IMG/VR virus record: IMGVR_UViG_3300022602_000083 | Location: 3,857-67,856 of that record | Source of the DNA: a virus | DNA length: 64,000 bases | Reading direction: 5' to 3' (one strand) | Shown here: positions 21,489 to 26,331 of the stretch, piece by piece | Position numbering within the stretch: position 1 is the first letter of the stretch | Layout of the letters: every line of letters begins with the position of its first letter | The notes under the pieces: generated by a model | Databases searched by the model: none | What the model saw: the letters and a program-made list of their open reading frames with translations, nothing else | Told to the model about the DNA's origin: nothing | Position numbers and translations under genes: made by a program

Positions 21489-21560
21489 TCTAGTGTTGAG
21501 GGGAAAAGGGGGAATTTCGTGCCACGGCACTCCCATACACCCACAGGTACCTCACTAGCG

Positions 21561-21633
21561 TGCCCCCGGCTGGAATTGAACCAGCAACACCCACCTTAGG
21601 ACGATGGTGTTCTATCCATTGAACTACGGGGGC
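21561..21633 (-). tRNA. tRNA-Arg (anticodon CCT)
   Basis: Full cloverleaf: GCCCCCG/CGGGGGC acceptor, GTTC/GAAC D-arm, loop GT-CCT-AA, GCTGG-TTCAATT-CCAGC; no encoded CCA. Confidence 0.9.
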
Positions 21634-21965: not shown

Positions 21966-22063
21966 TTGTATCCCTTTCTGTATGTTTTGCGGATTGTTTG
22001 TGTTGGTGCATGCATGGTTTATACTCCCCATACTATGTGAGTTTATGTGCATACTATTCCTGT

Positions 22064-22360
22064 AACACTACTTGGGACAAGCCATCATCGTGTTGAGCCC
22101 ACGAAGTCTCAACGAGGATGAAGGTTCAACCAGGACGGGTCGGATACACCTATTAGCGAACTCATAAGAGTTGCGTTCGGAGCCTTAGCAGAACGTCTCC
22201 CTAACTCTTCCTTTCGTGCGGATATGTATGTCTTGGATTGCTATGCAATCCGAGGCCAGGACAGACCACAGTGATTACTCATCGAGTGTGCTGTCGAGGC
22301 TTCGCATGGCATAGAAAATAGGCGGGGGAGCGTACCCTCTGTCGCTCAACCCCGCCTTTC
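22064..22360 (+). ncRNA. Candidate ~300 nt rod-shaped sRNA, antisense to the early operon
   Basis: ORF-free; TACTAT at 22052; nested stems whose G-U pairs favour the + strand; terminal hairpin 22320-22360. Confidence 0.5.
22316..22360. terminator. Bidirectional terminator-like hairpin
   Basis: AAAAT-AGGCGGGG-GAGCG...CGCTC-AA-CCCCGCCT-TTC. Confidence 0.65.
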
Positions 22361-23126: not shown

Positions 23127-23459
23127 TTACGCACTGATTCTCTCCTTTCTGTATAGGTTGGCTAATACCTGCTCTAATGAAAAGCAGGGTGTATTCATTG
23201 TGATAGCACCACGCTCTTCGGGTGTAGTGCCACCTTGGATTGAGTAACGATCATCTCTACTGACTGCGTCAGCAAGGCATTGTTGCTTGACTGGACAATC
23301 CGCACAGATACGCTTAGCTTCTGCTGCACGAGCCAGTTTGGCTGGGCCACGCTCATATACGCCGTAGTAGAAGATGTCCGTGTCCATACCTTTGCACTTG
23401 GCATCTTCGTGCCAACTGAGGTCTGCCCAGTCTGCTGAATGGTAGATTGCATCGCTCAC
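23127..23459 (-). CDS. whiB: WhiB-family Fe-S transcription factor
   Basis: W...AKC...AKRICADCPVKQQCL...GGTTPEER. Confidence 0.9.
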   Translation of the reverse strand: MSDAIYHSADWADLSWHEDAKCKGMDTDIFYYGVYERGPAKLARAAEAKRICADCPVKQQCLADAVSRDDRYSIQGGTTPEERGAITMNTPCFSLEQVLANLYRKERISA

Positions 23460-23614
23460 TCTTTGTCCTCTCTGAAATCCCAATCTTCTTGGTCAATCTT
23501 GTACTGACGCTCGATCAGGATAGCAGCTAACGACAGTACGATCAACAGTACGATAAATAATCCAAACATAATGCTTCCTTTCTTATAGAGGGTAAGAGGC
23601 ACACAGGATTACAT

Positions 23615-23779
23615 TTACGCCAGCACTTGGCGACCTGTGTACCTCTCGTCCGCTACAACTGGAGAAAAATCGGCGGGGACTTTGACAGTCTTAGATAAAG
23701 AGATAGAAGAAGAAGAACAACCACAAGATAGAGTTACCTTGATAGTAATCTTATGAGTAGTAGTGATAGTAGTAGTCAT
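23615..23779 (-). CDS. 54 aa Thr/Ser-rich peptide (not in ORF track)
   Basis: ATGA-coupled ORF MTTTITTTHKITIKVTLSCGCSSSS... Confidence 0.4.
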   Translation of the reverse strand: MTTTITTTHKITIKVTLSCGCSSSSISLSKTVKVPADFSPVVADERYTGRQVLA

Positions 23780-23979
23780 CTGCCAGAACTCCTTCCATTT
23801 AATAGGTCAGGGCTATCTGCCTTGACATAGGTAAAGCCTTGCTTAGGCATCAAGATAAGGCGAAAGCCCGCCATACGATCTCTAATGCCCTTAGATACAC
23901 ACTCACTAGCCATACAATAGGCATAGCCAGCCTCTATACGCTCAGGGCTAACCAAAGCGTCACAATACGGACAATTCAT
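23776..23979 (-). CDS. DksA/TraR-like Zn-finger small protein
   Basis: CPYC...ERIEAGYAYC...C; AGGAGG RBS. Confidence 0.55.
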   Translation of the reverse strand: MNCPYCDALVSPERIEAGYAYCMASECVSKGIRDRMAGFRLILMPKQGFTYVKADSPDLLNGRSSGR

Positions 23980-24017
23980 AATAACCTCCTAGTAGTAATA
24001 AAGTAATAGCCATACAA

Positions 24018-24113
24018 CACCAGTAATAACAGCACCCAAAGAGTTCACCAGTAATAACCTGACAGCCCCAAAGACTGCACTAGTAATAACCTGATAACAG
24101 CACCCGAAGGGTA
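24018..24113 (+). repeat. Three imperfect tandem repeats
   Basis: CACYAGTAATAAC at 24018, 24046 and 24078, each followed by AGC(A)CCC(A/G)AAG. Confidence 0.8.
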
Positions 24114-24309
24114 CGCTAGACCTGGTTGTACGGCTATGAAGCCACACGGCTACGCAGCCAGTGGCTTAAAATGAGTGGGGTAATCTCTCGCTTGGGGATT
24201 GCAGGACTGTAATCGCTGCTACAGGTGTTCCACCCCATCTATACCCATAGGGGCTACCTATGAGCATAGAAAGGGCGGGGGACAATACAGCCCCCGACCT
24301 TCCACCCTA

Positions 24310-24792
24310 TTAGACTAGGGAATCTACCTTGATAGAAGGCGCAAGCAACGCCAATTTCTCACGGATAGACATAAGCAAGAGGGATTCCTTCTCGCTATCC
24401 TCTGAAACAGCCAGAGTTAGATTGTTCAGAGCAGAGTTGATAGCCTTGTATTGGGCTAACAACGATGGTGCTGGCTTGACTGCCTGTGACTTAACACGCA
24501 TCAACTCGGCAATCATAGCCGTCTCGTTATCCTGCACTACAATCTCGTTGTAATGCTCCCCAATAAATGCGGGGGACAACAGGCTCACAGCGATACCCGA
24601 TTGAGTATGGTAGTAAGCAGCATAGACGAAGCCAACAGCAGACTTCTTGGTGAAATAGCCCAAGATGTCTGATGGCTTAGCGTCTGGGTACGCCTTGAAT
24701 AGTGGGGAGATAGTGTCTATCTTCCACTGCTTGGCATTGTTAAACAAGCCGGCAATAGCCTTGGCTTGGTCCTGCATTGTGGTTGTGGTCAT
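24310..24792 (-). CDS. First gene of the early operon, hypothetical
   Basis: GGAGAGG RBS before MTTTTMQDQ. Confidence 0.65.
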   Translation of the reverse strand: MTTTTMQDQAKAIAGLFNNAKQWKIDTISPLFKAYPDAKPSDILGYFTKKSAVGFVYAAYYHTQSGIAVSLLSPAFIGEHYNEIVVQDNETAMIAELMRVKSQAVKPAPSLLAQYKAINSALNNLTLAVSEDSEKESLLLMSIREKLALLAPSIKVDSLV

Positions 24793-24824
24793 AATGACCT
24801 CTCCGCTAGGGACACTCGCCCTAG

Positions 24825-24877
24825 TCGCCCCCACCTATGGGGTCGAACCATAGCCACGCCTATCGTGTGGGGAGCGA
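24825..24877 (-). ncRNA. tRNA-elbow-like three-way junction
   Basis: Closing stem, ACG-AUAGG-CGU D-like hairpin and CUAUGG-UUCGACC-CCAUAG T-like hairpin. Confidence 0.45.
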
Positions 24878-25133
24878 GAGATTACCCTTACTCTTCCTTC
24901 TGCCCCGCTTGGGTTACACCTATGATTTAACACCCCCTACCCTTAAACACCCTGCTACCCATGATTCGGGCAGACGAGATAGATGGTTGGATGTTTTTGG
25001 GCTAATACAGTGGCCTAAGGTGACGGGCATCACAGGCGGGAAAATTGGGGCAGCTGTGGAGCTATGAGCATAGGGTGGAAATTTTTTGGGGGTAGCTGGG
25101 GAGTAGGCAGTGGCTAAGTGGTAGAGTTACACC

Positions 25134-25598
25134 ATGGCTAAGAAGAAGATCTATCAGTTACCAGAGGACGAAGCTAACAAGCGTCTGAATCTGGGTTTGC
25201 GGACAGCTGAGAAGCTTGGGCTGCCTGAAGATGAGGTAGCGGTCCAGGTAGAGGGCTATAATGCCAATTACAGTAGCTATGTGGGTAGATACTACTGGCC
25301 TAAGGGTTTTGAGGTAATAGAAGCCCCTACGAGCGATAAGTCTAATTCTAAGGATAAAAGAGATAGAGCTATCGAGTGTGCATACAATCGGAAAGCTGAA
25401 GTGCTAGTGATTGTCTTTAGAGCTCCTAAGAGTACTAACATTCCTCCATTGATCAGATATAACGATGTGCCAGTGGAAATGTGGGAGAACCTGAAGCAGT
25501 CCGACTCTACAGGTAAGTTCTTGAAGTATTCAGGTATAGACGATGTAGCATGGTCAAAGACCAGTATTCCTGCTTTAACTGCAGAGTTTGGTGAATAA
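25134..25598 (+). CDS. KTSC-domain protein
   Basis: AYN...LVIVFR...YNDVP.EMWENL...STGKF; leaderless TAGAGT-N6-ATG. Confidence 0.7.
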   Translation: MAKKKIYQLPEDEANKRLNLGLRTAEKLGLPEDEVAVQVEGYNANYSSYVGRYYWPKGFEVIEAPTSDKSNSKDKRDRAIECAYNRKAEVLVIVFRAPKSTNIPPLIRYNDVPVEMWENLKQSDSTGKFLKYSGIDDVAWSKTSIPALTAEFGE

Positions 25599-25617
25599 TC
25601 GGGTATACTAAGGGTAG
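25598..25617 (+). promoter_or_regulatory. Conserved phage promoter motif
   Basis: ATCGGGTATACTAAGGGTAG. Confidence 0.7.
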
Positions 25618-25669: not shown

Positions 25670-26161
25670 ATGGCACACCCATATCATCAGGATCGTTACA
25701 AGGATCCATTTACTACCAATAGCGTAAGTAATAATCTAAAGCCAAATGAGATCACAATCCAGTCGCTATTCCCACAGTTCAATCGTTGGGCTATCGGATT
25801 TGATCCACTTCTACATACCCTACAGCAGGTAAGCTCTACAGCTAAGGCTAGTAGCTATCCTCCATACAACATCTACAAGGATGAGGACAAATACGTCCTA
25901 GAACTGGCTGTAGCCGGTTTTGGTAAGGAAGATATCACCATTAGCGTCAAAGAGCTCCAGTTGACCGTAGAAGGCCAATTAGAGGCATCTGAGAAGGAAC
26001 CTATCCATAAGGGAATCGCTACCCGTGACTTCAAGCAAAACTTCGTTCTAGCGGAGTATGTAGTAGTCAAGGGAGCAGAGCTCAAGGATGGAATGCTCCG
26101 CATTACGCTAGAGCAAGAACTTCCTGAAGAGCTACAACCGAAGTTGATCAAAATCAAATAA
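25670..26161 (+). CDS. Small heat-shock protein (Hsp20/IbpA-like)
   Basis: IGFD, YPPYNI, LAVAGF, HKGIA.R.F and LKDGML. Confidence 0.92.
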   Translation: MAHPYHQDRYKDPFTTNSVSNNLKPNEITIQSLFPQFNRWAIGFDPLLHTLQQVSSTAKASSYPPYNIYKDEDKYVLELAVAGFGKEDITISVKELQLTVEGQLEASEKEPIHKGIATRDFKQNFVLAEYVVVKGAELKDGMLRITLEQELPEELQPKLIKIK

Positions 26162-26238: not shown

Positions 26239-26310
26239 TGGTCGTTAGCTCATTGGTAGAGCGCCCTACTCATAATCGGGAGGTACCTGGTTCGATTCCA
26301 GGAGGACCAA
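26239..26310 (+). tRNA. tRNA with CAT anticodon (Met or Ile2)
   Basis: TAGCTC-ATTGGTA-GAGC, loop CT-CAT-AA, CCTGG-TTCGATT-CCAGG; one mismatch each in the acceptor and anticodon stems. Confidence 0.8.
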
Positions 26311-26331
26311 CGTTGTCAAGCTCAATTCCGT

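What the first reader, a model, noticed from the sequence alone, without database searches (positions are those of the whole stretch)
24173..24899. First early gene enclosed by a 15 bp inverted repeat that competes with a tRNA-elbow mimic
Seen: GGGTAATCTCTCGCT (24178-24192) and its exact complement (24873-24887), extendable by GAGT/ACTC, flank ORF 24310..24792 about 700 bp apart. The upstream arm overlaps a 53 nt element (24825-24877, - strand) with a closing stem UCGC(U)CCCCAC/GUGGGGGCGA, a D-like loop AUAGG and a T-like loop UUCGACC, but no anticodon arm. UCGCU is shared between the two pairings, so they partly exclude each other. A further hairpin (24806-24824) sits just before the RBS. Inference: an RNA switch or RNase III / RNase P processing cassette for the first-expressed gene, or a tRNA decoy against host nucleases. 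DNA inversion is less likely because no recombinase is visible.
Basis: partly seen in the sequence, partly recalled or inferred. Interest (0 to 1): 0.7.

Follow-up and report, generated by a model that had tools for sequence, protein, structure and literature searches.

The report
Phage message closed by paired ends
The first leftward gene of this lake phage and its relatives is enclosed by two stretches that pair across the whole gene, with a swappable folded piece, often a copy of the top half of a tRNA, at the inner end; it looks like a signal for cutting out and protecting that message, though no RNA data exist.

Summary
The exact 15-bp inverted repeat (24178-24192 / 24873-24887) encloses ORF 24310-24792 and is the only exact long-range repeat in the window.

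Related uncultured freshwater WhiB-encoding phages carry the same cassette. In 17 distinct cassettes with both flanks, a 5' arm about 60-125 nt before the ATG pairs with a 3' arm about 100-230 nt after the stop. The arm sequences differ between phages but stay complementary: cognate score 40.6 against 26.3 for non-cognate pairs, with 0 of 20000 permutations as high.

The 53-nt element next to the 5' arm is not a tRNA. It is a conserved anticodon-less tRNA top half: a 12-bp acceptor/T stack with a T-loop, and 9 of 12 pairs carry compensatory changes.

The same slot holds a T-loop module in 9 of 20 cassettes, a three-way junction without a T-loop in 2, and a plain long hairpin in 9. Near-identical strains have swapped it.

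Best reading: an RNA processing and stability cassette, combining an RNase III-type stalk with an RNase P-type or hairpin module. That function is inferred. DNA inversion and an anti-Shine-Dalgarno switch are rejected.

This scan has noted tRNA minihelices in other phage leaders before.

The parts
24935..24947 (-). TTTAAGGGTAGGG box upstream of the cassette; role unknown (promoter-proximal or RNA element)
   Evidence: It is the only exact copy in the window. TTAAGGGTRGGG occurs exactly once in 14 of 50 related records, and 0 times for the reversed control, always ahead of a cassette.
24873..24893 (-). 5' arm of the long-range helix (GAGU-AA-GGGUAAUCUCUCGCU)
   Evidence: Pairing with a cognate 3' arm is conserved in 17 distinct cassettes. 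The arm is unchanged in strain variants whose neighbouring module is replaced.
24825..24877 (-). Anticodon-less tRNA-like module. Extension UCGC/GCGA with U24873 unpaired at position -1. Acceptor-like stem 24867-24872 / 24829-24834. Linker 24854-24866. T-stem 24848-24853 / 24835-24840. T-loop UUCGACC 24841-24847.
   Evidence: Fold. Covariance model and pair counts. One strong hit in each of 5 genomes, always at this position. Not called as tRNA or tmRNA.
24806..24824 (-). Second leader hairpin CUAGGG-CGAGUGU-CCCUAG
   Evidence: Hairpins at the same place have different stems in relatives, and the loop CGAGUG recurs in L145/L149.
24798..24804 (-). Ribosome-binding site GGAGAGG, 5 nt before the ATG
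   Evidence: Read directly. It does not pair preferentially with the 5' arm.
24310..24792 (-). Enclosed gene: a 160-aa all-helical protein of unknown function
   Evidence: No Pfam or PHROG match. Four homologue clusters at 62-100% identity and distant homologues in related phages. AlphaFold2 pLDDT 84.2, with no fold match at E <= 0.001 in PDB or BFVD.
24276..24296 (-). G+C-rich hairpin just after the stop codon (terminator-like, with a weak U tract)
   Evidence: Present in all relatives read. The terminator scan does not call it.
24233..24275 (-). Long 3'-UTR hairpin built from two CUAUGnnCAUAG boxes
   Evidence: Conserved, with covarying outer pairs, in relatives. The same hairpin lies in another context in a contig of run X3.
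24173..24192 (-). 3' arm of the long-range helix (AGCGAGAGAUUACCC-C-ACUC), 118-137 nt after the stop

Best explanation
This is a conserved, modular cis-acting RNA architecture around the first gene of the leftward block in a family of uncultured freshwater WhiB-encoding phages of about 90-100 kb.

Shown:
- The message is closed by a helix of about 15-40 bp between its 5' leader and its 3' trailer.
- Directly inside the 5' arm sits an exchangeable structured module: in the window a tRNA top half without an anticodon arm, in other phages a pure 12-bp minihelix with a T-loop, a three-way junction, or a long hairpin.
- A second hairpin and the ribosome-binding site follow.

Inferred:
- The long-range helix acts like the processing stalks of ribosomal RNA operons and the RNase III sites of T7 early RNA. 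A host double-strand RNase cuts it and releases a one-gene message from the longer transcript.
- The inner module then marks or protects the new 5' end. A tRNA-like module would be cut by RNase P before C24872. A hairpin module would be cut by RNase III or would act as a 5' stabiliser.
- The G+C hairpins after the stop codon protect the 3' end.
- The few bases shared between the arm and the module's base let the two folds hand over to each other.
For: Long-range helix:
- It is present in 12 of 12 cassettes in minimum-energy folds of the full 740-880-nt RNAs (8-26 pairs).
- In my pairing score, cognate arms score 40.6 (minimum 30) and non-cognate arms 26.3 +/- 5.9. None of 20000 permutations is as high. 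The cognate partner is the row maximum in 9 of 17 and the column maximum in 12 of 17 (earlier sets).
- Arms differ in sequence between phages. L145 against L149 shows one compensatory G-C to A-U change and one G-C to G.U change.
- The sense strand scores higher than the antisense strand in 6 cassettes, equal in 4 and lower in 2.

tRNA-like module:
- 98.3% of 60 cells are paired, 9 of 12 pairs have changes on both sides, and 0 of 500 shuffles reach this. Slid controls give 37-50% paired (the alignment was fitted to the model).
- The model gives one strong hit in each of 5 genomes, always before this gene.
- A descriptor scan finds 7 hits in 0.99 Mb against 0-1 in shuffles. Five are these elements, one is the L071 minihelix and one is part of a real tRNA.
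- Four further cassettes have exactly 12 bp plus a 7-nt T-loop.

Slot exchange:
- A 97%-identical protein locus (L039) replaces only the module, keeping the fold.
- Contigs of runs X4 and X5 show this variant and a third variant.
- In 9 of 20 cassettes the slot holds a hairpin of about 16-25 bp.

Precedents:
- tRNA-like t-elements at mRNA ends (PMC1920247, abstract).
- Non-tRNA substrates of RNase P, including phage RNAs and mRNAs (PMC11143913, passage).
- 5'/3'-UTR pairing that creates an RNase III substrate (PMC3868564, abstract).
Against: - No RNA data exist. No listed run is RNA, so no end, cut or even co-transcription of the two arms is shown.
- A terminator-like G+C hairpin lies between the stop codon and the 3' arm and might end many transcripts before the arm is made.
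- The leader alone is not unusually stable (z -1.04).
- The tRNA-like modules lack a 3' CCA. Their 5' leader is base-paired in both conformations, which I recall disfavours RNase P.
- A T-loop is absent from 11 of 20 cassettes, so tRNA mimicry is not essential to whatever the slot does.
- The host and its RNases are unknown.
- The record encodes no RNase III of its own, so a host enzyme must be assumed.
- The pair counts rest on only 5 sequences.
Confidence: 0.55

Rival explanations
1. Conformational switch controlling expression. The 3' end of the 5' arm first pairs locally at the base of the module. Once the 3' arm is transcribed it is captured, and this changes translation or decay of the message without any required cleavage.
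For: In 8 of 12 cassettes at least 6 arm bases change partner between the leader-only fold and the full-length fold. The overlap recurs with unrelated sequences: UCGCU in the window, CUUACGG in L128, CCUGC in L121/L126/L133 and GCUCUG in L145/L149.
Against: The 5' arm does not pair with the ribosome-binding region better than shuffled arms do (mean z 0.13 over 11 cassettes). In the window, L039, L122 and L125 only 0-1 bases switch by minimum-energy folds. Adjacent G+C-rich helices often allow such branch migration by chance.
Confidence: 0.15
2. The tRNA-like piece is itself the product. Cut out of the leader, it acts as a small RNA that occupies a host tRNA-binding enzyme or a tRNA-directed defence nuclease.
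For: The 12-bp acceptor/T stack and a canonical T-loop are kept in 9 of 20 cassettes. The module is replaced between strains that are otherwise about 97-99% identical, as expected under an arms race.
Against: Plain hairpins or T-loop-less junctions fill the same slot in 11 of 20 cassettes. There is no anticodon arm and no CCA end. There is one copy per genome, always tied to this gene. The patchy divergence elsewhere in L039 fits ordinary recombination.
Confidence: 0.1
3. A DNA-level feature: an invertible or mobile gene cassette bounded by terminal inverted repeats, or retron-like a1/a2 repeats.
For: An exact 15-bp inverted repeat flanks one small gene. Look-alike words TAAGCCACTGG and TAGGCCACTGT lie outside both arms on the same strand.
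Against: The arms differ in sequence between orthologous cassettes and contain G.U pairs and bulges, which a recombinase site would not tolerate. No resolvase, tyrosine recombinase or reverse transcriptase is found in the record, which is 69% complete. No strand-change joint appears in contigs of 4 runs, although contigs hide rare forms.
Confidence: 0.03

Closest known systems
RNase III processing stalks of rRNA operons and RNase III sites of phage T7 early RNA (recalled, no call)
   Same: Sequences on both sides of the mature RNA pair into a helix of about two turns that encloses it. The setting is a phage early-type polycistronic region.
   Different: Here the enclosed RNA is a 160-aa protein message. 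T7 sites are local hairpins between genes. Cleavage is not shown here.
5'/3'-UTR pairing of icaR mRNA in Staphylococcus aureus (PMC3868564; abstract read)
   Same: The 3' UTR of a bacterial message pairs with its own 5' UTR. In that paper the pairing makes an RNase III substrate.
   Different: icaR pairs a short UCCCCUG motif with the Shine-Dalgarno region. Here the helix is 15-40 bp, lies 60-125 nt upstream of the ATG and does not involve the ribosome-binding site.
t-elements of plant mitochondria and tRNA punctuation (PMC1920247; abstract read)
   Same: tRNA-like folds inside transcripts at mRNA ends, proposed as RNase P or RNase Z signals. They show acceptor/T-arm mimicry without decoding function.
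   Different: This is a phage of bacteria. The module is combined with a gene-enclosing helix and is interchangeable with plain hairpins.
Acceptor/T-arm minihelix model substrates of bacterial RNase P, and natural non-tRNA substrates (list in PMC11143913, passage; the minihelix work itself is recalled)
   Same: A 12-bp coaxial stack capped by a T-loop. U is unpaired at position -1 in 4 of the 5 junction-type modules.
   Different: There is no 3' CCA, and the leader and trailer are paired.
tRNA-like domain of tmRNA and bacterial Y RNA (YrlA) (recalled)
   Same: Anticodon-less tRNA mimics with a T-arm and an acceptor-like stem, joined to a long helix.
   Different: The topology differs: both acceptor strands lie within 53 nt. 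ARAGORN calls no tmRNA, no Rfam hit appears even at E <= 10, and the record has no Ro/TROVE gene.

Membership tests
tRNA (Rfam RF00005) | Cloverleaf with anticodon arm, recognised by tRNA finders | tested here: not met
   ARAGORN and Rfam find only tRNA-Arg 21560-21633 and tRNA-Met 26239-26311. There is no tRNA hit in 23900-25200 even at E <= 10. ARAGORN calls no tRNA in 12 related loci.
tmRNA | tRNA-like domain formed by the 5' and 3' ends, plus a tag reading frame | tested here: not met
   ARAGORN reports no tmRNA in the window. Both acceptor strands lie within 53 nt.
tRNA-like processing signal (t-element / minihelix kind) | Acceptor-like stem stacked on a T-stem (about 12 bp) capped by a T-loop (UUCRANY) | tested here: met
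   The window has 6+6 bp and the loop UUCGACC. Covariation. Exactly 12 bp plus a T-loop in L154, L158 (with one bulge), L160 and L161.
tRNA-like processing signal (t-element / minihelix kind) | Cleavage by RNase P or RNase Z at the element, giving the mRNA end | not testable with these tools
   No RNA run was listed.
RNase III processing stalk | Duplex of roughly 20 bp or more formed by sequences flanking the released RNA | tested here: met
   19 pairs in the window, as 15+4 across a small loop. Arms of 11 to about 40 aligned positions in relatives. The helix is present in 12 of 12 full-length folds.
RNase III processing stalk | Staggered double-strand cleavage in the stalk | not testable with these tools
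   No RNA data. The record has no RNase III gene of its own.
icaR-type 5'/3'-UTR translational block | The 3'-UTR motif pairs with the Shine-Dalgarno region | tested here: not met
   The helix lies 81-101 nt upstream of the ATG in the window. Arm-to-RBS pairing is no better than for shuffled arms.
Invertible DNA segment / element with terminal inverted repeats | Sequence-conserved repeats, a cognate recombinase, and both orientations in the population | tested here: not met
   Arm sequences differ between orthologous cassettes. No PF00239 or PF00589 match in the record. No strand-change joint in 4 runs (contigs only).
Retron | Reverse transcriptase next to an ncRNA with a1/a2 repeats | tested here: not met
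   No RVT_1 match in the record, which is 69% complete.
Bacterial Y RNA (YrlA) | Adjacent Ro (TROVE) gene and a match to the Y RNA model | tested here: not met
   No TROVE match and no Rfam hit at E <= 10.

The most novel reading that the evidence does not exclude
The slot inside the stalk is a plug-in 'address label' that assigns the phage's first leftward message to one host RNase or another: a tRNA top half for RNase P, a long hairpin for RNase III. Co-circulating strains swap labels because hosts differ in these enzymes or in tRNA- or dsRNA-directed defences. In the tRNA-like versions the excised 45-60-nt piece also acts as a decoy. This would be a programmable, exchangeable RNA-processing module under arms-race selection in abundant lake phages.
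Probability: 0.12. Interest if true: 0.85.

Novelty: new variant of a known kind. Interest (0 to 1): 0.62.

Why it matters
Gene-enclosing 5'/3' pairing is textbook for ribosomal RNA but rare and little studied for bacterial or phage messages. tRNA top-half mimics as cut signals are documented in organelles, not in phages.

Here both occur together. They are conserved with covariation across a large family of abundant, uncultured freshwater phages, and the same slot is filled by alternative modules. That gives a natural experiment on how phages set the ends and lifetime of an early message using host tRNA- and dsRNA-processing enzymes. It also supplies compact parts (stalk, minihelix, hairpins) that can be tested directly in actinobacterial expression systems.

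My literature searches listed no paper describing such a cassette. These were term searches of an open-access library and I read listings only, so this is weak evidence that it is not in print.

Tried and rejected
Ideas tested and rejected:
- Anti-Shine-Dalgarno idea (5' arm masks the RBS, 3' arm mimics an SD). Arm-to-RBS duplexes are no better than for shuffled arms (mean z 0.13, 11 cassettes).
- attP or tRNA 3'-end remnant. The acceptor would start with C. An exact 24-mer search of IMG/VR found nothing, and the record has no integrase.
- Known RNA family. None was found at the gathering threshold or at E <= 10.

Searches that gave little:
- The 15-mer arm in IMG/VR gave 36 single, unrelated hits, about the chance level for that collection by my own estimate.
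- The neighbouring KTSC gene and the ORF itself found no locus in IMG/VR by pattern search.
- Whole-flank RNAduplex was uninformative because it pairs everything. I replaced it with a local pairing score.
- The MAFFT alignment of the modules was structurally wrong, so I built the model from two same-geometry sequences and re-aligned.
- Protein function: no Pfam or PHROG match, no fold match in PDB or BFVD at E <= 0.001, and no usable ESM Atlas lead.
- The L071 ORF is not detectably related to the ORF family (hhalign probability 1.4%).
- No RNA holder was listed among 24 runs. Laid contigs showed no inversion joint, and holes in coverage were not interpreted.
- The promoter scan found 0 sigma-70-like sites in 23500-25600, so the transcription start is unknown.
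The contigs of the 62-75%-identical homologues P0002-P0004, the best distance for arm covariation, could therefore not be read.
- No supplements were consulted.

Full report
**Setting**

The window is 64 kb of a 67.9-kb IMG/VR virus record estimated 69% complete. It encodes:
- WhiB (23127-23483, -), Hsp20 (25670-26161, +) and two KTSC-domain proteins;
- large terminase, portal, ribonucleotide reductase and a tRNA-guanine transglycosylase-like protein;
- tRNA-Arg and tRNA-Met.

INPHARED has no DNA relative apart from tRNA matches. The terminase finds more than 597 related IMG/VR contigs at 82-96% identity, including 88-100-kb genomes, two of them with terminal repeats. DNA holders are freshwater, pond and lake metagenomes. 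WhiB-encoding freshwater actinophages are known in print (listing only). The finding lies at the strand switch: genes left of about 24900 run leftward and genes right of 25134 run rightward.

**The observation**

- The 15-bp repeat is exact. It extends to 19 pairs across a 1x2 loop (-30.5 kcal/mol) and is unique in the record.
- It is the only exact non-local inverted repeat among the 8 found in the window.
- Folding the 761-nt minus-strand RNA pairs the two arms and gives -317.1 kcal/mol against -251.3 +/- 7.1 for 20 shuffles.
- The 131-nt leader alone is ordinary (z -1.04).

**Relatives**

The enclosed 160-aa protein has no family but four homologue clusters. I collected cassettes by four routes:
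- One metagenome contig (L039, 97% protein identity) covers the whole cassette.
- A profile of the protein found distant homologues (22-28% identity) in 8 of 24, 2 of 50 and 2 of 16 related records.
- The box TTAAGGGTRGGG upstream of the cassette occurs exactly once in 14 of 50 records and never in the reversed control. It led to five more cassettes, two of them identical, whose proteins the profile does not recognise.
- A pattern from the conserved 3'-UTR hairpin gave three more.

After dropping exact duplicates (L132 = L126, L147 = L145) and L040 (no leader), there are 20 distinct cassettes. Of these, 19 have both flanks; L127 has only the 5' part.

**The long-range helix is conserved by pairing, not by sequence**

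- In every cassette with both flanks, a stretch about 60-125 nt before the ATG is complementary to a stretch about 100-230 nt after the stop.
- I scored this with a local pairing score (G-C 3, A-U 2, G.U 1). The test used 17 cassettes, leaving out L039 and L160 as near-copies of the window and of L158.
  - Cognate arms average 40.6 (minimum 30). Non-cognate combinations average 26.3 +/- 5.9 (maximum 54, between the close relatives L158 and L161).
  - None of 20000 permutations reaches the cognate mean.
  - The cognate partner is the best in its row for 9 of 17 and in its column for 12 of 17.
- Minimum-energy folds of the whole 740-880-nt RNAs contain the helix in 12 of 12.
- L145 and L149 differ by one compensatory change and one G-C to G.U change.
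- Wobble pairs favour the sense strand in 6 cassettes, neither strand in 4 and the antisense strand in 2. This is modest support on its own.
- Close strains (L039; contigs of runs X4 and X5) leave both arms unchanged while neighbouring bases differ.

**The module beside the 5' arm**

- In the window it is a three-way junction. A 6-bp acceptor-like stem and a 6-bp T-stem stack to 12 bp under the loop UUCGACC. A 13-nt linker stands where the D arm, anticodon arm and variable region would be. U24873 is unpaired at position -1, and a 4-bp extension UCGC/GCGA follows.
- It is not a tRNA or tmRNA by ARAGORN or Rfam.
- A covariance model built from the window and L128 recovers L123, L125 and L127 and nothing else in 0.49 Mb.
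  - On that alignment 98.3% of cells pair and 9 of 12 pairs carry changes on both sides. No shuffle of 500 reaches these values, and slid registers give 37-50% paired. The caveat is five sequences, aligned to the model.
  - The rebuilt model gives one strong hit in each of five genomes among 50 records, always before this gene.
- A descriptor scan gives 7 hits in 0.99 Mb against 0-1 in shuffles. Five are these elements. One is part of a genuine tRNA. One (L071) is a pure 12-bp helix with a T-loop in a cassette with an unrelated-looking protein.
- Three relatives of that cassette have the same 12-bp plus T-loop design with covarying stems.

**The slot is exchangeable**

By my reading of the folds, the 20 cassettes divide as follows:

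| Module in the slot | Count | Cassettes |
|---|---|---|
| Junction-type T-loop module | 5 | window, L123, L125, L127, L128 |
| 12-bp minihelix with T-loop | 4 | L154, L158, L160, L161 |
| Three-way junction without a canonical T-loop | 2 | L039, L152 |
| Plain hairpin of about 16-25 bp | 9 | L121, L122, L124, L126, L133, L134, L135, L145, L149 |

- L039 is nearly identical to the window over 900 nt, but the module core is replaced by an unrelated sequence with the same fold: CUCUUUAC/GUAAAGAG instead of CCCCAC/GUGGGG.
- A contig of run X4 carries that variant. Contigs of run X5 break exactly at the module and show a third version with GCCG-UUCGAUU.
- L039 also shows other short patches of clustered differences, so recombination between co-circulating phages is a sufficient explanation for the swap.

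**Competition between pairings**

The last bases of the 5' arm can also pair locally at the base of the module. In 8 of 12 cassettes at least 6 arm bases change partner between leader-only and full-length folds. In the window, L039, L122 and L125 the minimum-energy folds show 0-1, and the overlap is the 4-5 nt UCGC(U) seen in the isolated element. The arm does not target the ribosome-binding site.

**Mechanism**

- Shown: the structures and their conservation.
- Inferred: their use.

The combination has three parts: a stalk of roughly two helical turns enclosing an RNA, a tRNA top half with the 12-bp ruler, and stable hairpins after the stop codon. This is what rRNA operons and T7 early RNA use for RNase III (recalled), and what organelles use for RNase P or Z (PMC1920247, abstract). 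RNase P has phage RNA and mRNA substrates (PMC11143913, passage). A 5'/3'-UTR duplex of a bacterial message is a documented RNase III substrate (PMC3868564, abstract). That hairpins of RNase III size replace the tRNA mimic in half of the cassettes fits a generic 'cut or protect here' role better than a tRNA-specific one.

Points against: no RNA evidence, a terminator-like hairpin before the 3' arm, no CCA, and paired leaders.

**Rivals**

- DNA inversion or mobility is very unlikely.
- A retron and a Y RNA are excluded as far as the record goes.
- A pure conformational switch or a decoy RNA remain possible minority readings.

**Relation to earlier notes of this scan**

- One first-reader note (e1-5966037) describes the same module in the L125-type genome.
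- Several followed-up notes report tRNA minihelices in leaders of unrelated phages and read them as cut sites.

These are not independent evidence. They do show that the tRNA-mimic part has been seen by this scan before on other DNA. The gene-enclosing helix and the exchangeable slot are what this locus adds.

Noticed in passing
window 24233-24275 and 25062-25073: The palindromic box CTATGnnCATAG occurs 12 times in the window (up to 1 mismatch) against 2.8 expected. Two copies form the conserved long 3'-UTR hairpin. An exact copy, CTATGAGCATAG followed by GGGTGGAAATTTTTT, lies on the + strand ahead of the first rightward gene. A contig of run X3 carries the same hairpin in another context. It could be a gene-end RNA module or a protein-binding site.
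   Followed up: partly
window 24935-24947; loci L144-L157: The box TTAAGGGTRGGG occurs once per genome, always upstream of the cassette, often followed at variable distance by GTGTAACCCAnnAGGGGCA. Whether it is a promoter or an RNA element was not decided.
   Followed up: partly
window 24018-24119: There are three to four direct repeats of about 13-28 nt (CACCAGTAATAAC and its extension) at 28-32-nt spacing, between the cassette and the next gene at 23979. Relatives have TCTATTATCAGGTA there.
   Followed up: no
window 24158-24168 and 25007-25017: The look-alike words TAAGCCACTGG and TAGGCCACTGT lie on the minus strand just outside both ends of the cassette. The count in the window is not above chance. 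Relatives keep GGCCACTGG after the 3' arm as the start of another long hairpin.
   Followed up: partly
window 22199-22213 and 24885-24899: The 15-mer AAGGAAGAGTWAGGG is shared between the leader just upstream of the 5' arm and the ORF-free gap 22052-22360. At 22199 it is part of a different local hairpin.
   Followed up: partly
L154 (G005), L158, L160, L161, upstream of the cassette: Five or six copies of CGGACAAA(A/T) are spaced about 8-20 nt apart around the TTTAAGGG box. They may be binding sites for a regulator.
   Followed up: no
L039 versus window 24100-25000: Differences between the two near-identical sequences fall in short patches: the module, codons 3-7, two spots in the ORF, and 24896-24900. 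This mosaic looks like patchy recombination.
   Followed up: no
L045 582-720 (G019): A genuine tRNA lies about 1.7 kb from the cassette on the opposite strand, as tRNA-Met does at 26239 in the window. The strand-switch region carries tRNA genes in more than one relative.
   Followed up: no
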